Shown piece after piece: positions 15,232-40,631 of a stretch of 64,000 bases of DNA. Within the stretch, counting starts at the first letter, position 1. Every line of letters begins with the position of its first letter. This stretch comes from a virus. Location of the stretch: the IMG/VR virus record IMGVR_UViG_3300028840_004184, positions 106,411-170,410 of that record, one strand, 5' to 3'. The notes beneath the pieces are model-generated. The model ran no database searches. It had not been told where the DNA came from and worked only from the letters and a program-made list of their open reading frames with translations. The translations under genes were made by a program, and so were the position numbers.

Positions 15232-16107
15232 TCAATTGGTTGTTCCATTTCCATCGAATAAAGTAAAAGGAGTTTCCTTACACTGAAAGCCAGATGCCCC
15301 CTTATGTCCGCCACCGCCGTGCTTTTTGGCGATATCCCCAACATTTACATCACCCTTCGTAGAATACATGGTCACAACCCAGTGTTTGCCATTCTTGTTA
15401 TAATAAACCATCATTGCATCATGTTTGTCGGGATCATACACAGAGTCGAACAACTTGGACCCAGGCATACAGGCGTTCGCCGCTATGAAACGAAGGCCCT
15501 CAAATTCGAACTCATAACACAGTGGACCACACAAGAATTCGTTTTGTTTATTAACATACTTTTGAATTGTACGACCTTCACTGACAATATCCATAACAAG
15601 CGTATAAGAAGGCAGCATTTTGTTACCATCAAACAATATATGCCACAAACGATCGTCATCTTCCGGATTCGTGTCTCGTTGCTTGATGCCATACTGAAAC
15701 GGCAGTACGTCCATGTCTTTATGATCCCAAACGTCATACCTACCCAACAGAAAGACAGAGCGAGGCATTACTTGGTTAGGGAACAGATATTGCCACGTAA
15801 GTTCACATGCCGCGAATTTCGTATCACGTATACCGGCTATAGCAATTTCGAATGCATTGACGCCGTTTATAGCTGTTTCGTGATGATCAATCCAAACCAA
15901 GTCACAATGATTAAACAATGTGATCATATCTTCGTGTGGCTGCAAGGAAAAATCGACCATAAAGACAATTTCGCCTTCTGTAATAGAATCCCACGGAAAT
16001 TCTTCTCCGTAATCCATGCCGATCATTTCGCATTCTGGATATTTATGTTTGACAATTGCACCAGCACAGTGGCCGTCAAGGTCTGTTGAATGATAAAAAC
16101 ATTTCAT
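15232..16107 (-). CDS. DHH/DHHA1 family phosphoesterase
   Basis: YHSTDLDG, MVDFS, WIDHH, GGGGHKGASGF motifs. Confidence 0.9.
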   Translation of the reverse strand: MKCFYHSTDLDGHCAGAIVKHKYPECEMIGMDYGEEFPWDSITEGEIVFMVDFSLQPHEDMITLFNHCDLVWIDHHETAINGVNAFEIAIAGIRDTKFAACELTWQYLFPNQVMPRSVFLLGRYDVWDHKDMDVLPFQYGIKQRDTNPEDDDRLWHILFDGNKMLPSYTLVMDIVSEGRTIQKYVNKQNEFLCGPLCYEFEFEGLRFIAANACMPGSKLFDSVYDPDKHDAMMVYYNKNGKHWVVTMYSTKGDVNVGDIAKKHGGGGHKGASGFQCKETPFTLFDGNGTTN

Positions 16108-17799: not shown

Positions 17800-18282
17800 T
17801 TATAGAAACCTTTTCCATATATCGTGTTCGTTGTCAAGCTTGCTTTTAGTTCGCCGACCACGGATATTGTTGATAAGTTTGAATTCATTTGTTATACGAT
17901 TTATCATAAGGCTATGTTTGCCTTTCATAAAAGCTTCTGATAGACCAGGCGGATCGGGCGGACACGACATCCAATTATTTATTCTTTCTTTTGTAGAATA
18001 ACATATGGTCCATTCCGAGGTATCACTATTATTTATCATACCAAGCGGGAGGCCGTCTATATTAACAGATTTGGCATGTATAATAGAATAACATTCGCCT
18101 ATGTATTCCCAGTCTGAATCTTTTAATTCTATGCCATATGGCCTTTGTTGATACTGTGTTTTGAATATATTTCTATCCACATCGGGGGTTTTTGAGGGGG
18201 TCCCCTTAATGCATCCCTTGGGGCAATATGTCGAAGTCAGCAGCATTTCTAGCTCAGAACCACATACACTACACTTTTCCAT
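17800..18282 (-). CDS. protein with N-terminal CxxCG-LLTS Zn-ribbon
   Basis: MEKCSVCGSELEMLLTSTYCPKGC. Confidence 0.7.
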   Translation of the reverse strand: MEKCSVCGSELEMLLTSTYCPKGCIKGTPSKTPDVDRNIFKTQYQQRPYGIELKDSDWEYIGECYSIIHAKSVNIDGLPLGMINNSDTSEWTICYSTKERINNWMSCPPDPPGLSEAFMKGKHSLMINRITNEFKLINNIRGRRTKSKLDNEHDIWKRFL

Positions 18283-18445
18283 TGAAGTCTCCGAATATAT
18301 TACTAAACATACCAGAAGTCATCATCGCTGCTTGAACTTTACGTATAAGGTCTTCAAGCCTTGCCCTGTGTGTAGGATCTCGTGTCACACTAAATTCGAT
18401 GCTAAGCTTCTCGTTAAACGTTTTTAATGTTTGTCTGATGTTCAT
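18269..18445 (-). CDS. hypothetical protein
   Basis: GGAG RBS before ATG 18445; the longer start overlaps RNA motif A. Confidence 0.55.
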   Translation of the reverse strand: MNIRQTLKTFNEKLSIEFSVTRDPTHRARLEDLIRKVQAAMMTSGMFSNIFGDFNGKV

Positions 18446-18467
18446 ATGGCTCCATAATGAAAAAAAT

Positions 18468-18566
18468 AGCGGAGATTGATGCATCTATAACGGTGCTCTC
18501 TGCCATCAAGTGGCAGCAGCATTCCCGGCTTAATAGGCAATAGAAGGAAGATGCAATATAGCCGCT
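18468..18566 (-). ncRNA. structured RNA motif copy A
   Basis: AGCGG/CCGCU outer stem, UCUUCCUUCUA core, 53-nt structured apical insert. Confidence 0.75.
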
Positions 18567-18575
18567 CATATTAAC

Positions 18576-18631
18576 AGAGGTAATTATAACACCTAAATTT
18601 ATCTTTAGAAGGAAGATGTTATATAGCCTCT
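18576..18631 (-). ncRNA. structured RNA motif copy B
   Basis: AGAGG/CCUCU, UAUAACA/UGUUAUA, UCUUCCU bulge, UCUAAA/UUUAGG. Confidence 0.75.
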
Positions 18632-18663
18632 TTTTTATTATATAAAGTAGCCTTTATATTTCA

Positions 18664-18736
18664 GGTCGGTCGGGGACAAGATTCGATACTTGTCATATCG
18701 GGGATCAGCCGCAGTTTATCTTAACCTACCCGCCGA
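18664..18736 (-). ncRNA. non-canonical tRNA-like element
   Basis: Cloverleaf with bulged acceptor-like stem, D-like arm, 3-bp arm with CUGAUCC loop, GACAAG-UAUCGAAU-CUUGUC T-like arm; no CCA. Confidence 0.55.
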
Positions 18737-18760
18737 GTTTGTTTGTTATCAAGGATCATC

Positions 18761-20923
18761 TTACAAAAACTCTCCCATAATAACATCATCATCAAAATGA
18801 GTTACTACACGAGCACCTTCTTTAAGAGGCAGGGAGTTCACGTCGTCAACGACAGTAAATATGGTGTCGGCTTCTTCGATACTGACGAGTTCGCCGCGAG
18901 CCTCTACGTGTAAATTGAATAGATCGAAGAGAGTGGGTTTTACACAGATGAAGTTAGACATAGCTTTGCCCATGGCGATCATGCCTCTCTGGTTACTCTC
19001 GACGTTGTTCCCGCTCCACGAAGGTCTTTTCTTAAGAGCAAGATCGGTCCAAATCACCTTATTATTTTTAAGGTCTATAATCATAGGAATACAGATGCGA
19101 GTATTGGCGGTTAGATCGATTTTGTTTTCTACCGTCTTGGGCTCGTAAATTTCTCCGGAGCCAGGTTCTTCTCTGCTCATCCAACCCATAAAACATTCAG
19201 GGACCTTACAGAATGGCTGACCGCTATATGAAAGTACCGACCATACGATGTAACGAACACCATATCGTCTAGCGGACTCGATATCTATATCAATGAATTC
19301 GCTTGCTCCATTGGGAGCATTAGTAATATCTCCGCTATGACATGCTTTATAAGCGTTTGACCTTATGCGTGTATATGATATATGCTCCTTATAATTCCAG
19401 TCGTCGTCGTATAGAACAGCGGACGAATCAATATCAACGCGATTACTAGCGGATATGTTTTTCCAATGGATAAAGCTGCGTAAGGTTTTCATATTTTCCG
19501 GCATATCCACCTGTGATCCACGAGTAATGGTCCGGAATGCACCGCTTGCCGACCTCTGAGAAAATGGAACGAGGTAGCTAGCAAGCCTTTCGTCGATATG
19601 TACGTTACCTAGACTACCCCTTTCCTTAAATATTGTACATAGTGCTTTATCGCACACTGTTACTACTCTTTGACAAATATCATCATCAATCTCGGGCAGA
19701 TGATTATCCATACTAAAGGCTTTAGCTATTGTTCTTTTGGGGAAAAACACCCTTGTATTATGCTCAAGGCTATTCCTGCCGCGAAAATGAGCCATAACCT
19801 GTAGCAACACCGGGACGGAGACCTTGCTGGCTACGGCAGCAAATCGAGCAATTATATTGCCGGGCCTCGCGGTCATTCTCATTAAATGATCGAGTCTACG
19901 GGCGAATTCTCCCGGCCTCTGCTTAAGGAGATCGGCCGCCACGCGGGTTTCCCCTTGTGACAGGGCTGTTTCGACCTTACCATTAAAAGTCTTGATTTTC
20001 CTATGATTGTTACGGAGATTCCAGAAAGCACTATAAGCCTTTTCAAAACGCCCTTTATAATCACCAGGATGTAATTTTTCACCAAGACGAATCCATTTCA
20101 TGGTGTAACGCTTCATGTCTTCTTCAAGAAGCCCACACGCATGCTCTAATAGACCAAGTAGTAGTTTTCTTTCTGAGCGATTGAAATTACGATAATTGGT
20201 GTTGGTAGCAAGACTTATATCACCATCTGACATGGATGTTGCCAGCCTCAAAACGTCGGTAGCTGTTTTGAAATAAGGTTTTAGAAACGTTATAGCGGCA
20301 TCGTCAACCTGAATATTTTCAAGAACACACTTTGAAACCAGGGCTACGTTTTCTTTAAGAGGAATGGCATCAGGCAATAGTCGTTCAAGATCATTTTTGT
20401 AGTATTCGACGTACCACATTACGTCAGTCTTATCGGTTTCCGACAGAGAAGTTTTTGAGTTGATTAGATTTTGTCCTATCTCCACAAACTCTTTTTCTGT
20501 ACCTAGACCAATACCCTTGGGCTTGTGTGTTTCTAAAGACGGAAATCTTTCTTTGACTTCATATTCTGGAATCCATTCGCCGAAAGTCAGATAGTGAAAA
20601 ATGGCATTAATGTAAAGTTCAGCTTCAACCATTTCCATTACTTGCTGGGGGAAATTGGGATACATGGGTTTGTGACGAACGTTGGCACCCACCATCTTTT
20701 TAAGGTTTGCGGCTATGTTCACGTAAAAAGTTTTAGCCTGATCGATGGATAATGTCCTTAGGGCGTTAACTAGATCTTTTGAGAAAGTAAAACCAAGGTT
20801 TTCGATATTACGCATCATAGTTGCGATGTACTGATCGGGAAGACAGTTGCTTTTGAACATTCTACTGGTTCCAGTGGGAATAAACACCTTTAGTTTTCTT
20901 CTCAGATAAATTTCGTTTCTCAT
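18761..20923 (-). CDS. large alpha-helical protein with C-terminal TerD-like domain (possible divergent TROVE/Ro-like)
   Basis: C-terminal VDIDSSAVLYD, HSGDITNAPNGASEFIDID and SYSGQPF are TerD-type; N-terminal region looks helical (TATDVLRLA, RPGEFARRLDHL). TROVE relation is inference. Confidence 0.7.
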   Translation of the reverse strand: MRNEIYLRRKLKVFIPTGTSRMFKSNCLPDQYIATMMRNIENLGFTFSKDLVNALRTLSIDQAKTFYVNIAANLKKMVGANVRHKPMYPNFPQQVMEMVEAELYINAIFHYLTFGEWIPEYEVKERFPSLETHKPKGIGLGTEKEFVEIGQNLINSKTSLSETDKTDVMWYVEYYKNDLERLLPDAIPLKENVALVSKCVLENIQVDDAAITFLKPYFKTATDVLRLATSMSDGDISLATNTNYRNFNRSERKLLLGLLEHACGLLEEDMKRYTMKWIRLGEKLHPGDYKGRFEKAYSAFWNLRNNHRKIKTFNGKVETALSQGETRVAADLLKQRPGEFARRLDHLMRMTARPGNIIARFAAVASKVSVPVLLQVMAHFRGRNSLEHNTRVFFPKRTIAKAFSMDNHLPEIDDDICQRVVTVCDKALCTIFKERGSLGNVHIDERLASYLVPFSQRSASGAFRTITRGSQVDMPENMKTLRSFIHWKNISASNRVDIDSSAVLYDDDWNYKEHISYTRIRSNAYKACHSGDITNAPNGASEFIDIDIESARRYGVRYIVWSVLSYSGQPFCKVPECFMGWMSREEPGSGEIYEPKTVENKIDLTANTRICIPMIIDLKNNKVIWTDLALKKRPSWSGNNVESNQRGMIAMGKAMSNFICVKPTLFDLFNLHVEARGELVSIEEADTIFTVVDDVNSLPLKEGARVVTHFDDDVIMGEFL

Positions 20924-20950
20924 CTTAGTTCGTCCTTATAATAAATAAAA

Positions 20951-21033
20951 AAGGAAATTGACGCCTCTAATAAGGTAGCTCCCAAAGCTACTGGCGAATC
21001 GCCAGTGATAGAAGGAAGAAGCGTCGTGGCCTT
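20951..21033 (-). ncRNA. structured RNA motif copy C
   Basis: AAGG/CCUU, GACGCU/GGCGUC, UCUUCCUUCUA core, 39-nt insert with two hairpins. Confidence 0.75.
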
Positions 21034-21047
21034 AAAATTTTTAAAGC

Positions 21048-21118
21048 AGCAGGAAATTTTCCTATCTAATAACAATATAATGAATAGTTTTTAGAAGGAA
21101 GATAAGATGTAGTCTGCT
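21048..21118 (-). ncRNA. structured RNA motif copy D
   Basis: AGCAG/CUGCU, UCUUA/UAGGA, UCUUCCUUCUA core, 23-nt insert; begins at predicted TSS. Confidence 0.75.
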
Positions 21119-21125
21119 TGTTTTT

Positions 21126-21153
21126 ATTATATACAATTTTCCAAGAAAGTCAA
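21126..21153 (-). promoter_or_regulatory. sigma70-type promoter TTGACT-N16-TATAAT for the RNA-TerD locus
   Basis: Near-consensus hexamers 7 nt upstream of copy D. Confidence 0.8.
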
Positions 21154-21171
21154 GTAAAAAATCTAGAAATA

Positions 21172-21666
21172 TTATGAAGTAGTTACTGGTATAATACCTC
21201 CGACCATCATTTGAGCCTTACAGGTAGTACACTTAACTTTACATGTGAATTTAAGACCTTTGGTTACATCATAGTCGCTTGGGTTTACTTTGTCATTCCA
21301 CCATCCAGCAGCTTCTTCATCAGGCAGAGTTTGGCTACCGCCGTGATTACCTAGTTCTCCATCAGCGGTTCGATCATCATTGAAAATACATGTCCAGTCG
21401 CCTTCACCGTCTTTGGCGTCAGGGTCCCATGCGAAAATTTTCCAGTAATATATCCATTTTGGATTGTCACATAGTTGGACGCAATTAAAGCTGGCCGTCC
21501 ATACAAAACCCTCTCCGTATACCAGAGGATTAGGATCTAGTATCATCTCTTTTCTATTCCACGCACACATTTTAACTTGTGGGTTCGGATTATAGTCCAT
21601 AATCGTTGTTTCCTTTCTATCGACAGGATAGTTGTGCAAACAAAGTATTATGTGTTCTCTTTGCAC
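21172..21666 (-). CDS. hypothetical protein
   Basis: ORF; start probably at MDYNP after AAGGA. Confidence 0.6.
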   Translation of the reverse strand: MQREHIILCLHNYPVDRKETTIMDYNPNPQVKMCAWNRKEMILDPNPLVYGEGFVWTASFNCVQLCDNPKWIYYWKIFAWDPDAKDGEGDWTCIFNDDRTADGELGNHGGSQTLPDEEAAGWWNDKVNPSDYDVTKGLKFTCKVKCTTCKAQMMVGGIIPVTTS

Positions 21667-21891: not shown

Positions 21892-23181
21892 TTATCCATA
21901 TGTACGCCCCTCTCTATATATTTTGAATGCATCAACTCTTCTCTGGAAGAGGGCACCGCCGAGATTAGGTCCTTCTTCGTACCCCTCTTCAATAAGTTGT
22001 TTGCCCGTAATGGTAGCCTCTATTTCAAAAGCTTTGTCGATGATATCTTCTGCATAATCTAGCCATATCAAAATATCTAAATACTGTGCTCCTTCGCGAT
22101 ATATAGAGTCCAAGGAGGATAGATGCATCAGGCTTTTTATGAATTTTTTATTATTCAAAATCCACCTGAGTAACTTCCCTGGACGCATTTCCTGGATGGT
22201 TTTGATACGCATATGATGTTTTGCACAGAAAACACCGAAGTTCCTAAATTCGTTAGGTATTTTGAGCCTATCACAAAAATCATTAACGGGCTTTTCGCCC
22301 ATTTTGCCATGACCATGGTGAGCGGGATGTATTTCTTTGGGAGTACATCCTTTTCCAAAGTCATGCACCAAGGCTCCAAATCTCATCAAAGGTGTATCAC
22401 TAAAAGTTAAAATATTCATAGTATGGTTAAATGCCGTACCATCATGTTTATCGAAAACATTTAGGGCAGCTACTTCTTTAAAGTGAACATCTAGAACATC
22501 GATACTCTTAAGTACTTCGAAAAAACGCCTTGGGTTAGGTGTCTTCAATACCTTTTCAAATTCAATCCAAACCCGTTCCGGAGTTAAGGTCTCAAGCTGT
22601 TTCTTCATATTATGCATTAATACAAGAGTATGCATATCAATGTCAAATCCAAGCTGAGCCGCAAATCTGGCGGTTCTGTAAACACGGAGCGGATCTTCCT
22701 CGAAAGCTTCCGTGGTATGTCTCAAAATTCTGGACTCAATGTCCTTTTCACCACCAAAAGGGTCAACTACGGCAGACACATCATCCGGGATACAACATTT
22801 TTGCATATGAATCGCTATGGCGTTCATGGTCAGATCTCGTCTGGCTAAATCATCATGAATAGTGACATCTTTGCCTGTAAAAAATGTAAATCCTTTGTAG
22901 CCTACACCGTCTTTTTTCTCCTTACGAGCCATGGCTACTTCACATTTTTTGCCACCAATTTCTACAAGAAATACAGGAAAGTCATCACCGACTACCTTTT
23001 CAAAGGGCATGTCTGTAATATCAATACCCGTAACAACATAGTCCTCATCATTAGAGTTTATACCTAAAAAAGAGTCGCGTACCGCTCCTCCAACCAACCA
23101 AAGATGACCACCTAGCGAATCTATGAAGTTGGCGAATTCTGTTGTGTGTTCAAAGGTTTTTGTTTTCTTTTTTTTCATCAA
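21892..23181 (-). CDS. cca: class II tRNA nucleotidyltransferase (CCA-adding enzyme) with HD domain
   Basis: LVGGAVRD, DEDY, DLARRDLTMNA, EDPLRVYR, LVHDFGK. Confidence 0.92.
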   Translation of the reverse strand: MMKKKKTKTFEHTTEFANFIDSLGGHLWLVGGAVRDSFLGINSNDEDYVVTGIDITDMPFEKVVGDDFPVFLVEIGGKKCEVAMARKEKKDGVGYKGFTFFTGKDVTIHDDLARRDLTMNAIAIHMQKCCIPDDVSAVVDPFGGEKDIESRILRHTTEAFEEDPLRVYRTARFAAQLGFDIDMHTLVLMHNMKKQLETLTPERVWIEFEKVLKTPNPRRFFEVLKSIDVLDVHFKEVAALNVFDKHDGTAFNHTMNILTFSDTPLMRFGALVHDFGKGCTPKEIHPAHHGHGKMGEKPVNDFCDRLKIPNEFRNFGVFCAKHHMRIKTIQEMRPGKLLRWILNNKKFIKSLMHLSSLDSIYREGAQYLDILIWLDYAEDIIDKAFEIEATITGKQLIEEGYEEGPNLGGALFQRRVDAFKIYREGRTYG

Positions 23182-39719: not shown

Positions 39720-39796
39720 TGGCACGGGGAGCAGGATTCGAACCTGCATTATTCAGCTTCAAAAGCTGATAGGTTAGCCAATTACCTCATCCCCGC
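39720..39796 (-). tRNA. tRNA-Gln(UUG)
   Basis: Cloverleaf, UCAGC-UUUUGAA-GCUGA, GGUUCGAAUCC, encoded CCA. Confidence 0.92.
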
Positions 39797-40195
39797 TTTA
39801 TCCATTTGCGTATTGTGTTGCTACTTACGCCATATTTGGTTGCTGTTTTTTCATAATTGGTTGCTTTGATTTCTTCTGTCAATACCTCGATCGATGGTCT
39901 TTGTGTCTTTCTTCTTGATTTATCAAAGCATGTTTTACATAATCCTGTTAATCAGTATTTCATTTAATGGTCTTGGTTTACCTATTTTTTCAGTACGTTT
40001 TTTATTAGCCCTTTTTCTAAGTTCAGAGATGTCTATGTTGTCGTAATTGACCCTATTTATAAAAGTGCGGAAATTTCCACCCTTATTTAATAGGCCAAAA
40101 TGTTTCAAAACATCACTTATAGTATCAGAGACAGATATAATTTCAATAAGGCGATCTCTTGGTATCTTCCATATGATACTTCTTCGTTTACGCAT
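39787..40195 (-). pseudogene. decayed HNH endonuclease (catalytic domain missing, frameshifted)
   Basis: N-terminal SDVLKHFGLLNKGGNFRT...PLNEILI, then in another frame CKTC...KYGVSSNTIRKW (HTH); no HNH core between them. Confidence 0.6.
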
Positions 40196-40266
40196 ACATA
40201 ACCCTTTTATTATGAAGCAAAAAAAATTATACTGTGCAGTAGAATTCTACTGAGCAGTGGAATAAT

Positions 40267-40340
40267 TGGTGGGCGGAGAAGGAATCGAACCTCCGTGGGT
40301 AGGTCTTCAGCCTACAGCCTTACCACTAGGCTATCCGCCC
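40267..40340 (-). tRNA. tRNA-Phe(GAA)
   Basis: GUAGG-CUGAAGA-CCUAC, canonical arms, CCA. Confidence 0.92.
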
Positions 40341-40342
40341 AT

Positions 40343-40418
40343 TGGTGGACCGTGTAGGACTTGAACCTACCACCTACCGCTTAAAAGGCGGTTGCTCTAC
40401 CTGATGAGCTAACGGTCC
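40343..40418 (-). tRNA. tRNA-Lys(UUU)
   Basis: ACCGC-CUUUUAA-GCGGU, canonical arms, CCA. Confidence 0.95.
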
Positions 40419-40473
40419 AGGTAGTTAAATTTTCGCCTATATTTCTTCATTATGTAGCCTCTTTTTTGAGTTT

Positions 40474-40547
40474 TGGAGGCTCTGGGAGGAATCAAACCTC
40501 CGTACAGCGGTTAACAGCCGCACGCTAAGTCACTCAGCTACAGAGCC
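40474..40547 (-). tRNA. tRNA-Asn(GUU), atypical
   Basis: GCGG-CUGUUAA-CCGC; T-loop UUUGAUU; G1-C72, U73; CCA. Confidence 0.8.
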
Positions 40548-40554
40548 TTGTGTT

Positions 40555-40631
40555 TGGTAGCCCCACCAGGACTCTAACCTGGAACTTACGGTTTAGAAGA
40601 CCGTTACTCTATACGGTTGAGTTATGGGGCT
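40555..40631 (-). tRNA. tRNA-Arg(UCU), atypical elbow
   Basis: ACGGU-CUUCUAA-ACCGU; T-loop UUAGAGU; A20; CCA. Confidence 0.88.

What the first reader, a model, noticed from the sequence alone, without database searches (positions are those of the whole stretch)
18664..18736. Non-canonical tRNA mimic inside the TerD/RNA-repeat locus
Seen, on the - strand 25 nt after the TerD-protein stop: UCGG-CGGG...CCCG-A-CCGA (acceptor-like stem with a bulged A), GGUU-AAGAUA-AACU (D-like), CGG-CUGAUCC-CCG (3-bp stem with a 7-nt loop, GAU at the anticodon position) and GACAAG-UAUCGAAU-CUUGUC (6-bp T-like arm, 8-nt loop). It ends CCU, not CCA. All arms still pair although none has canonical geometry, and it lies 21 kb from the tRNA cluster. 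Established: bacterial YrlA Y RNAs contain a tRNA-like domain. Inference: a tRNA-shaped processing signal, a nuclease decoy, or a fifth RNA of the putative RNP.
Basis: partly seen in the sequence, partly recalled or inferred. Interest (0 to 1): 0.72.

Follow-up and report, generated by a model that had tools for sequence, protein, structure and literature searches.

The report
Degenerate tRNA-like relic beside Ro60-like gene
The 74-base cloverleaf is really there, but it fails every tRNA test and is most likely a worn-out tRNA gene left beside a Ro60-like phage protein, whose own partner RNAs (already noted by this scan) are the interesting part.

Summary
The CCU ends at 18663, one base beyond the stated range. 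The cloverleaf is the minimum-energy fold, alone and with flanks. As a fold it is not unusual: z is -1.1 against shuffles, and about 20 other non-tRNA cloverleaf folds occur in this window. ARAGORN, all of Rfam (tRNA model included) and a phage-tRNA profile HMM do not detect it.

Two results argue against pure chance. A 14-base exact match joins its T arm to the phage's own tRNA-Ser(GCU) (E 4e-4). Its best alignment to the 24 phage tRNAs beats 98.7% of shuffles and 99.7% of genome windows.

The context is real. The 720-aa gene encodes a helical part whose best fold matches are Ro60 proteins (modest Z), plus a TerD domain. Four covarying "handle" RNAs flank it. In relatives this cassette sits inside tRNA arrays, and 33 handle RNAs carry inside-out, YrlA-style tRNA bodies with mostly canonical T and D loops. 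This element has neither loop, is not mounted on a handle, and ends CCU where all 24 phage tRNAs end CCA.

Odds: decayed tRNA about 0.5, retained structural or processing module about 0.25, chance about 0.2. This scan has already found the protein-RNA system in at least 64 other genomes.

The parts
18663..18736 (-). The finding itself: a 74-nt non-canonical cloverleaf. It reads U(-1), then a 7-bp acceptor with a bulged A, a 4-bp D stem with a 6-nt loop lacking GG, a 3-bp anticodon stem with the 7-nt loop CUGAUCC, a 6-bp T stem with the 8-nt loop UAUCGAAU, and ends A-CCU.
   Evidence: Sequence. MFE fold and pair probabilities. No call by ARAGORN, Rfam or nhmmer. A 14-nt identity to the phage's own tRNA-Ser(GCU) T arm. 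Alignment statistics.
18761..20923 (-). 720-aa protein gene. Residues about 463-655 form a TerD beta-sandwich. The helical part, from about residue 143, has Ro60/Rsr proteins as its best fold matches.
   Evidence: No Pfam hit for this protein; it matches phrog_33734, of unknown function. More than 4600 homologues, named 'TerD family protein' by NCBI. AF2 pLDDT 89.9. TerD fold Z about 15. Ro60 family matches: 2nvo Z 7.7 over 324 aa, 9l5y Z 7.0 to 8.4, 9kop Z 7.0, 9nen Z 6.1, 1yvp Z 6.5.
21048..21118 (-). Handle RNA unit U1. The layout is P1, then ACUAC, P2, UCCUUCUA, a 24-nt insert, P2', AAAUUUC, P1'.
   Evidence: Alignment A3 and covariation count.
20951..21033 (-). Handle RNA unit U2. Its insert holds two hairpins, one of them shaped like an anticodon arm (20975-20991).
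18576..18631 (-). Handle RNA unit U3, the minimal form with an 11-nt insert. It starts 31 nt downstream of the cloverleaf.
18468..18566 (-). Handle RNA unit U4, with a 54-nt insert. It is followed by a small ORF.
18637..18664 (-). Sigma-70-like promoter (CTGAAA-16-TATAAT) for U3-U4. Its -35 hexamer overlaps the last two bases of the cloverleaf's CCU, so the cloverleaf lies outside a U3-U4 transcript started here.
   Evidence: The -10 region is repeated at the U1 promoter (repeat family D11).
21126..21153 (-). Sigma-70-like promoter (TTGACT-16-TATAAT, 11 of 12 matches) upstream of U1-U2 and the gene. No intrinsic terminator lies between it and the cloverleaf, so the cloverleaf is probably in the gene's 3' untranslated region.
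   Evidence: 0 terminator-like sites in 18200-21300.
21892..23181 (-). Phage CCA-adding enzyme / tRNA nucleotidyltransferase, on the same strand about 1 kb upstream.
   Evidence: Pfam PolyA_pol 6.4e-17 and PolyA_pol_RNAbd 5.6e-12. phrog_2244 7e-97. It lies next to the homologous gene in only 2 related loci.

Best explanation
The element is a tRNA-derived sequence that no longer qualifies as a tRNA. It is most likely a decaying tRNA gene: a pseudo-tRNA whose anticodon loop resembles Ile-GAU and whose T arm is related to the phage's tRNA-Ser(GCU).

In related phages the Ro60-like/TerD gene and its handle RNAs sit inside tRNA arrays, often with a tRNA directly after the stop codon or directly in front of a handle RNA. 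In this phage the cassette lies 19-33 kb from the two tRNA clusters, and one flanking tRNA appears to have been carried along and eroded. The erosion comprises a 1-nt insertion in the T loop, a bulge in the acceptor 3' strand, a shortened or mismatched anticodon stem, loss of the D-loop GG, and CCA changed to CCU.

Shown: the pairings, the failure of all tRNA detectors, the local identity to the phage's own tRNAs, and the tRNA-rich context in relatives.

Inferred: the ancestry, and that the element has no decoding role. It is presumably transcribed as the 3' untranslated end of the gene's mRNA. Any residual activity would be as a passive structure.
For: 1. It fails every tRNA model: ARAGORN, all Rfam families including tRNA, and nhmmer.
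2. Canonical tertiary-contact features are missing. The T loop has 8 nt, the D loop has no GG, and position 37 is C. By contrast 29 of 33 tRNA-like inserts of this RNA family have a canonical T loop, and 25 of 33 also have a canonical D arm.
3. All 24 tRNA genes of the phage encode CCA. This element ends A-CCU, one substitution away.
4. It matches the T arm of the phage's tRNA-Ser(GCU) exactly over 14 nt, in register, with the T loop differing by one inserted A (E 3.9e-4). An 8-mer matches the tRNA-Ile(GAU) anticodon arm. The global alignment beats 98.7% of shuffles and 99.7% of genome windows.
5. Position: 45 of 72 distinct homologous loci have same-strand tRNAs within 2.5 kb, and 28 have one within 400 nt of the gene. 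True tRNAs follow the stop codon in L063, L064/65, L072 and L088. Eleven handle units start 0-4 nt after a tRNA.
6. The same genome holds other eroded tRNA pieces in its main cluster.
7. The fold is no more stable than shuffles, and the D and anticodon arms have pair probability of about 0.5 or less.
Against: Neutral decay would be expected to break stems. The deviations are mostly indels that keep pairing, including an anticodon arm shortened on both sides.

One related phage has a tRNA-like with a similarly truncated anticodon arm (GGG-UCGCU-CCC) in the same place, between the stop codon and the first handle unit (L056:4674-4745; Rfam tRNA 43 bits). That hints at a recurring design.

No extant tRNA is close over the full length (best about 60%), so the ancestry rests mainly on the T arm. 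Phage genomes are compact, and 100 nt of useless spacer is unusual. No conservation test was possible.
Confidence: 0.5

Rival explanations
1. A retained, non-decoding tRNA-like module. The cloverleaf would be kept for its shape in one of three roles. It could be a punctuation signal cut by RNase P and/or RNase Z, separating the gene's mRNA from the downstream U3-U4 RNAs and capping the mRNA 3' end. It could be a stand-alone counterpart of the tRNA-like bodies that other phages mount on the handle RNA, possibly a substrate of the neighbouring CCA-adding enzyme. It could be a decoy for a host tRNA-targeting enzyme.
For: All four arms pair, and the acceptor and T arm are robust (P 0.96 and 0.70). 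The fold survives in context. The RCC of the 3' end is kept.

The position is the same as the tRNA-like with a truncated anticodon arm in L056. The tRNA-then-handle junction recurs in at least 9 phages.

None of the four handle units of this phage carries a tRNA-like insert, whereas 33 of 171 distinct units elsewhere do. A CCA-adding enzyme gene lies 1 kb upstream. M. smegmatis YrlA is cut by RNase P and receives CCA (PMC4201824).
Against: It lacks the T-loop and D-loop nucleotides that the family's tRNA-like domains conserve. An 8-nt T loop and a 14-bp stack with a bulge are poor RNase P or TruB substrates; that judgement is from general knowledge and was not tested.

Handle arrays elsewhere, and U1-U2 here, need no such element. 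U3-U4 have their own promoter, which overlaps the element's 3' end. The CCA-adding enzyme is not a conserved neighbour: it appears in 2 related loci only. The fold has no stability above shuffles.
Confidence: 0.25
2. A chance fold. The sequence is an ordinary 3' untranslated spacer that happens to fold as a cloverleaf, and its resemblance to tRNA is coincidental.
For: z-score -1.1. About 20 non-tRNA cloverleaf MFE folds in the window and 14 in 17.7 kb of comparable spacers. No hit with Rfam, ARAGORN or nhmmer. The only ARAGORN call is at a threshold where shuffled genomes give about 500 calls.
Against: The 14-nt exact match in register to the phage's tRNA-Ser(GCU) T arm has E 3.9e-4. Given a TCGAAT loop, matching the next 7-8 nt of one of 24 tRNAs has a probability of about 1e-3 (my estimate). 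The global alignment is in the top 0.3-1.3% of controls. U8-A9, a 7-nt loop with U33 and a terminal A-CC are all in register. By my estimate from the rate, a chance cloverleaf is expected in this about 100-130-nt spacer on the right strand only about 2% of the time.
Confidence: 0.2
3. A working but structurally aberrant tRNA-Ile(GAU) used in translation.
For: A 7-nt loop with U33 and GAU at the anticodon position. A 7-bp acceptor is possible. A CCA-adding enzyme is encoded nearby and could repair the CCU end.
Against: The anticodon stem has 3 bp, position 37 is C, the T loop has 8 nt, the D loop has no G18G19, and the acceptor has a bulge. No detector calls it. The phage already has a canonical tRNA-Ile(GAU) at genome position 84164-84240.
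Confidence: 0.03

Closest known systems
tRNA pseudogenes and eroded tRNA remnants in phage tRNA clusters
   Same: Partial identity to the phage's own tRNA genes, a recognisable arm order, loss of canonical loops and of the encoded CCA, and the presence of further eroded tRNA pieces in the same genome.
   Different: It lies 19-33 kb from the phage's two tRNA clusters. All stems still pair, though with non-canonical lengths. It sits inside an RNA-protein cassette where tRNA shapes are used functionally in relatives.
YrlA-type bacterial and phage Y RNAs bound by Ro60/Rsr (Chen et al. 2014, PMC4201824)
   Same: It is encoded on the same strand, 24 nt from a gene whose helical part has Ro60/Rsr as its best fold match. 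[quoted passage not shown] Related loci of this gene family carry RNAs with exactly the YrlA order of V, T arm, capped acceptor and D arm.
   Different: The element has normal tRNA topology with free ends at the acceptor. It is not joined to a protein-binding stem and has no GNCGAA motif. It lacks the conserved T and D loops, and no Rfam family hits it. The partner protein has a TerD domain, not vWA, and no detectable TROVE sequence signature.
The 'handle' RNA family of Ro60-like/TerD loci. It is undescribed in Rfam and in the papers searched, but this scan has noted it repeatedly on other genomes.
   Same: Same locus and same strand. In relatives, handle RNAs display tRNA bodies or are fused to tRNAs (L007, L078, L056).
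   Different: The element lacks every handle signature: GGCUAUG, the UCCUUCUA bulge, and AAUUUCC. It is separated from U3 by 31 nt that contain a -10 box.
tRNA-like processing signals such as the MALAT1 mascRNA or tRNA punctuation of polycistronic transcripts. This comparison rests on general knowledge and was not tested here.
   Same: A cloverleaf at the 3' end of an mRNA, between two functional RNAs, with an intact acceptor/T-arm stack and RCC.
   Different: There is no evidence of cleavage. The T loop and the stack length are non-canonical. Relatives manage without such an element.

Membership tests
Canonical tRNA (Rfam RF00005) | Covariance-model score at or above the gathering threshold (29 bits) | tested here: not met
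   No hit at the gathering threshold. No hit at E<=10 on 701 nt or on 91 nt. The five true tRNAs of the window score 55-70 bits.
Canonical tRNA (Rfam RF00005) | A 7-nt T loop (T54-Psi55-C56-R57-A58) and G18G19 in the D loop, needed for the elbow contact | tested here: not met
   The T loop is UAUCGAAU (8 nt). The D loop is AAGAUA, with a single G.
Canonical tRNA (Rfam RF00005) | A 5-bp anticodon stem and a 7-nt loop with U33 and a purine at 37 | tested here: not met
   The stem has 3 bp; in ARAGORN's low-threshold threading it has 5 positions with U.U and G.A mismatches. The loop is CUGAUCC: U33 is present but position 37 is C.
Canonical tRNA (Rfam RF00005) | A 7-bp acceptor stem and, in this phage, an encoded 3' CCA | tested here: not met
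   The 7 bp form only with a bulged A in the 3' strand. The end is A-CCU, whereas all 24 ARAGORN-called tRNAs of the genome end in CCA.
YrlA-type Y RNA tRNA-like domain | Permuted order (5' strand with the Ro-binding motif, V, T arm, acceptor-like stem-loop, D arm, 3' strand), with the ends in the protein-binding stem (PMC4201824) | tested here: not met
   The element has the normal order of acceptor 5' strand, D, anticodon, T and acceptor 3' strand, with free ends. The permuted order is present in 33 handle-borne inserts of related loci.
YrlA-type Y RNA tRNA-like domain | The GNCGAAN0-1G motif and conserved D and T loops | tested here: not met
   There is no GNCGAA; the nearest stretch is AUCGAA, inside the T loop. 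The loops are non-canonical. No Rfam family hits.
YrlA-type Y RNA tRNA-like domain | Encoded within 4 kb of a Ro60 (TROVE) gene, on the same strand | tested here: inconclusive
   It is on the same strand, 24 nt from the gene. The protein has no TROVE Pfam hit. The Ro60 family is its best fold match, but with modest Z: 8.4 over 265 aa and 7.8 over 247 aa in an exhaustive search, and 6.1 to 7.7 over 320-330 aa.
Handle RNA of Ro60-like/TerD loci | P1, GGCUAUG, P2, C(U/A)UCCUUCUA, insert, P2', AAUUUCC, P1' | tested here: not met
   The motif occurs in this arrangement only four times in the 170-kb genome (U1-U4), and none overlaps the element.
tRNA-derived relic (pseudo-tRNA) | Sequence similarity to bona fide tRNAs above chance, in structural register | tested here: met
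   A 14-nt exact match to the tRNA-Ser(GCU) T arm (E 3.9e-4). The best global score is reached by 1.3% of shuffles and 0.27% of genome windows. The profile HMM, however, sees nothing.
tRNA-derived relic (pseudo-tRNA) | It lies where relatives have intact tRNA genes | tested here: met
   tRNAs directly follow the homologous gene in L063, L064/65, L072 and L088. 28 of 72 distinct loci have a same-strand tRNA within 400 nt of the gene.
tRNA-derived relic (pseudo-tRNA) | No purifying selection on the structure, seen as drift or absence in close relatives | not testable with these tools
   The nearest available loci share 50% protein identity or less. The one 67% relative (P0002) has no retrievable DNA.

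The most novel reading that the evidence does not exclude
The cloverleaf could be a working, stand-alone tRNA-shaped RNA of the Ro60-like/TerD particle. It would be a 'split' version of the tRNA body that other phages graft onto the handle RNA. It would be released from the gene's mRNA by RNase P/Z-type cuts and tagged by the phage CCA-adding enzyme. It would serve as a decoy or adaptor alongside the four handle RNAs.
Probability: 0.15. Interest if true: 0.65.

Novelty: new member of a known kind. Interest (0 to 1): 0.3.

Why it matters
On its own the element matters little. A worn tRNA copy is an ordinary by-product of the turnover of phage tRNA clusters.

Its value is as a marker of history. 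It supports the view that the Ro60-like/TerD gene and its handle RNAs travel as a cassette that normally lives inside tRNA arrays, and that tRNA genes are the raw material from which this RNA family builds its tRNA-shaped cargo.

If the element proved functional, it would show that the particle can use a tRNA mimic supplied separately from the handle. That would make the role of tRNA mimicry in Ro60-type particles, an open question since YrlA was described, easier to test by separating the two parts.

The surrounding system is the more important object. Other findings of this scan already cover it.

Tried and rejected
- Rfam. No family, tRNA model included, hit the window at gathering thresholds apart from the five true tRNAs. 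There was also no hit on 701 nt or 91 nt around the element at E<=10. The handle RNAs are not in Rfam either.
- ARAGORN at lowered thresholds. It calls tRNA-Ile(gat) at -ps70, and -mt -ps90 gives a different call, mtRNA-Cys. The -ps70 call was rejected because that setting gives 517 calls in the genome and 503-549 in Markov-shuffled genomes. There is no call at -ps80 or -ps90.
- nhmmer with a profile of 162 phage tRNAs. No hit at E<=1000, although it recovers other tRNA fragments in the genome.
- Search for homologues of the element. The exact 20-mer of the T arm was not found in viral contigs. blastn of 151 nt against GenBank phages gave only noise at E>=2. megablast of the 4-kb locus gave nothing. 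Protein-guided searches of viral and metagenome contigs gave loci with 50% identity or less. The 67% relative has no DNA on hand. Conservation and covariation of the element therefore could not be tested.
- Expression. No RNA holder is listed among the public runs. Only two DNA runs hold the stretch (sediment and seawater metagenomes), and they may be the source of this DNA. Read laying was not used, because contigs identical to the window cannot show RNA ends.
- The idea that the element is a degraded handle unit. Only GCGGCUGA resembles the start of a unit, and the UCCUUCUA bulge and AAUUUCC are absent. Rejected.
- The idea that the hairpins act as an intrinsic terminator. No U tract follows, and the scan found 0 terminators in 18200-21300. 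Rejected.
- Conserved synteny with the CCA-adding enzyme. It was found near the homologous gene in only 2 fetched loci, L088 and L113.
- Literature. No paper was found linking TROVE and TerD, or TerD and tRNA-like RNAs, beyond a jumbo-phage survey that treats them separately.

Full report
**What the window is.** The window is the last 64 kb of a 170,410-bp virus record with direct terminal repeats. ARAGORN tRNA genes in the genome, in two clusters at 82-92 kb and 146-147 kb. The second cluster is the five tRNAs at window 39720-40631. The finding lies at genome 125073-125146, 19-33 kb from either cluster.

**The observation.** On the - strand the stop codon of a 720-aa ORF is TAA at 18763-18761. 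CCU occupies 18665-18663, so the element is 18663-18736, one base more than reported.
- The cloverleaf is the minimum-energy fold of the isolated sequence (-20.6 to -20.8 kcal/mol). It is also the fold when 40 nt of flank are added on each side.
- Pair probabilities are about 0.96 for the acceptor, 0.70 for the T arm, 0.5 for the anticodon arm and 0.4-0.47 for the D arm.

**Is the fold more than chance?** As a fold, no.
- The energy z-score against dinucleotide shuffles is -1.10.
- I scanned the window on both strands for MFE structures with a closing stem of at least 7 bp and three hairpins. This gave 30 clusters. About nine are the five real tRNAs read on both strands and about 20 are chance. 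This element is third among the chance ones by energy.
- The same scan of the 260 nt downstream of 68 distinct homologous genes gave 14 non-tRNA cloverleaves in 17.7 kb.
- ARAGORN does not call the element at default or moderately lowered thresholds. Its call at 70% of the thresholds (tRNA-Ile, gat) is worthless, because that setting yields 517 calls in the genome and 503-549 in shuffled genomes.
- Rfam reports nothing at E<=10, even when only 91 nt are searched.
- A profile HMM built from 162 phage tRNAs finds other tRNA fragments in the genome but not this one.

**Is it tRNA-related at all?** Probably yes.
- TCGAATCTTGTCCC is identical to the 3' half of the T loop, the 3' strand of the T stem and the first acceptor bases of the phage's own tRNA-Ser(GCU). 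It sits in the same structural register. The two T arms differ by one inserted A and one G-to-A change (E 3.9e-4 against the 24-tRNA set).
- CGGCTGAT equals the anticodon-arm core of the phage's tRNA-Ile(GAU).
- The best global alignment to any phage tRNA scores 36. That score is reached by 1.3% of shuffles and 0.27% of random genome windows.
- U8-A9, a 7-nt loop with U33, and a terminal A-CC are in register. All 24 phage tRNA genes end in CCA and this element ends in CCU.

**The surroundings.** The upstream gene has no Pfam hit but belongs to a very large family that NCBI names 'TerD family protein'.
- An AlphaFold model built on 46 homologues is confident (pLDDT 89.9).
- Residues about 463-655 are a TerD sandwich (Z about 15).
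- The helical part has as its best matches four Ro60-family structures over 320-330 residues (Z 6.1-7.7).
- In an exhaustive search with the N-terminal model alone, the two top hits of 48,161 chains are a Thermus phage Ro60 (Z 8.4, 265 aa) and Deinococcus Rsr (Z 7.8, 247 aa). Xenopus Ro follows at Z 6.5 over 279 aa. All other hits cover only about 95 residues.
- These Z values are modest for helical repeats, so I call the protein Ro60-like, not a proven TROVE member.

**The handle RNAs.** Four copies of one RNA unit flank the gene: U1 21048-21118, U2 20951-21033, U3 18576-18631 and U4 18468-18566. The layout is P1, GGCUAUG, P2, UCCUUCUA, insert, P2', AAUUUCC, P1'. They are the only four in the genome.
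- The same unit flanks homologous genes in nearly all of 80 viral loci.
- In 69 of 80 bacterial loci, 1-3 units were detected. Of those 127 units, 112 lie upstream of the gene start, mostly within 70-330 nt.
- Of 255 distinct motif hits, 157 have both helices, against 35 after shuffling the downstream sequence.
- On a 44-sequence alignment, 87.5% of cells pair against 58% in shuffles, and the covariation score is 0.73 against 0.17. The caveat is that the units were chosen for pairing.
- Rfam has no such family.

**tRNA shapes in this RNA family.**
- Of 171 distinct units, 33 carry inserts of 81-107 nt, most of which are circularly permuted tRNA bodies. The order is anticodon-stem strand, variable region, T arm, acceptor stem capped by a loop, U8-A9, D arm, anticodon-stem strand. 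That is the YrlA architecture described by Chen et al. 2014 (PMC4201824).
- 29 of the 33 keep a canonical T loop, and 25 also keep a D-arm signature.
- One locus has the reverse permutation, a normal tRNA with the handle in place of its anticodon loop (L007:5024-5158, Rfam tRNA 55.6 bits).
- The gene sits inside tRNA arrays in many phages. 45 of 72 distinct loci have same-strand tRNAs within 2.5 kb, and 28 have one within 400 nt of the gene.
- Eleven units in at least nine phages begin 0-4 nt after a tRNA 3' end.
- True tRNAs directly follow the stop codon in L063, L064/65, L072 and L088.
- Several further tRNA-likes with a canonical T arm and CCA, but an aberrant core, occur in these loci. 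The closest analogue of the present element is L056:4674-4745. It lies between the stop codon and the first downstream unit and has an anticodon arm reduced to GGG-UCGCU-CCC.

**Interpretation.**
- It is not mounted on a handle.
- Its topology is normal, not permuted.
- It lacks the T-loop and D-loop nucleotides those mimics conserve.
- It is not needed for handle RNA production. U1-U2 start right after their promoter, U3-U4 have a promoter whose -35 overlaps the element's last bases, and in many relatives arrays start 10-30 nt after the stop.
- The genome also contains other eroded tRNA fragments.

The simplest account is that the cassette came from a tRNA array and carried one flanking tRNA, which has since decayed. 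I give this 0.5.

A retained structural role gets 0.25. This could be mRNA 3' end processing or stabilisation, or a stand-alone tRNA-shaped partner or decoy. The reasons are that every arm still pairs, the deviations are mainly length changes rather than mismatches, L056 shows a similar design in the same place, and a CCA-adding enzyme is encoded 1 kb upstream.

Pure chance gets 0.2 and a working tRNA 0.03.

**Limits.** No close relative of the phage could be retrieved, so conservation of the element is untested. No RNA data exist for it.

**Relation to earlier notes of this scan.** The Ro60-like/TerD protein with handle RNAs has been reported by this scan in at least 64 other genomes, and twice on this genome. 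My independent checks agree with those notes. None of the notes retrieved in those look-ups concerns a free-standing degenerate cloverleaf like this one.

Noticed in passing
window 20975-20991 (-), inside unit U2: The hairpin GUAGC-UUUGGGA-GCUAC has a 5-bp stem and a 7-nt loop with the U33/R37 pattern. It looks like an anticodon arm, with UGG at the anticodon position, displayed on a handle RNA.
   Followed up: no
window 18269-18664 (-): The second unit pair, U3-U4, has its own sigma-70-like promoter and leads a small ORF (probable ATG near 18445). This mirrors the bacterial arrangement, where 1-3 units lie upstream of the TerD-family gene itself (112 of 127 detected units, mostly within 70-330 nt). 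The units may therefore also act as a cis-regulatory leader.
   Followed up: partly
G000:C1 83537-83632, 87976-88048, 87395-87425, 95614-95636 (outside the window): The main tRNA cluster of the same phage holds further degenerate tRNA pieces. One is a tRNA body with a 23-nt insertion in the anticodon region, and another is a weak Ile(GAU)-like copy.
   Followed up: partly
L014:6186-6267, L024:265-350, L028:5833-5904, L056:1649-1723, L056:4674-4745, L056:6141-6220, L086:767-835, L088:4558-4623: These are tRNA-like genes with a canonical T arm and a 7-bp acceptor, most with an encoded CCA (the two other L056 copies end CAA), but an aberrant D or anticodon region. ARAGORN does not call them. They lie in phage tRNA arrays next to the Ro60-like/TerD gene.
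   Followed up: partly
L032:837-974, L078:5618-5765, L086:1665-1857, L033:4600-4756, L007:5165-5310: tRNA scaffolds carrying structured insertions of about 50-100 nt in the anticodon region. Some hold a second T-arm-like hairpin.
   Followed up: no
L020:1361-1674, L024:992-1394: Phage-encoded tmRNA genes (Rfam 111.7 and 55.4 bits) in the same tRNA arrays as the Ro60-like/TerD cassette.
   Followed up: no
window 15232-16107 (-) and 21892-23181 (-): A DHH/DHHA1 phosphoesterase and a CCA-adding enzyme with a weak HD-domain match lie on the same strand as the cassette, giving the neighbourhood an RNA-processing flavour.
   Followed up: partly
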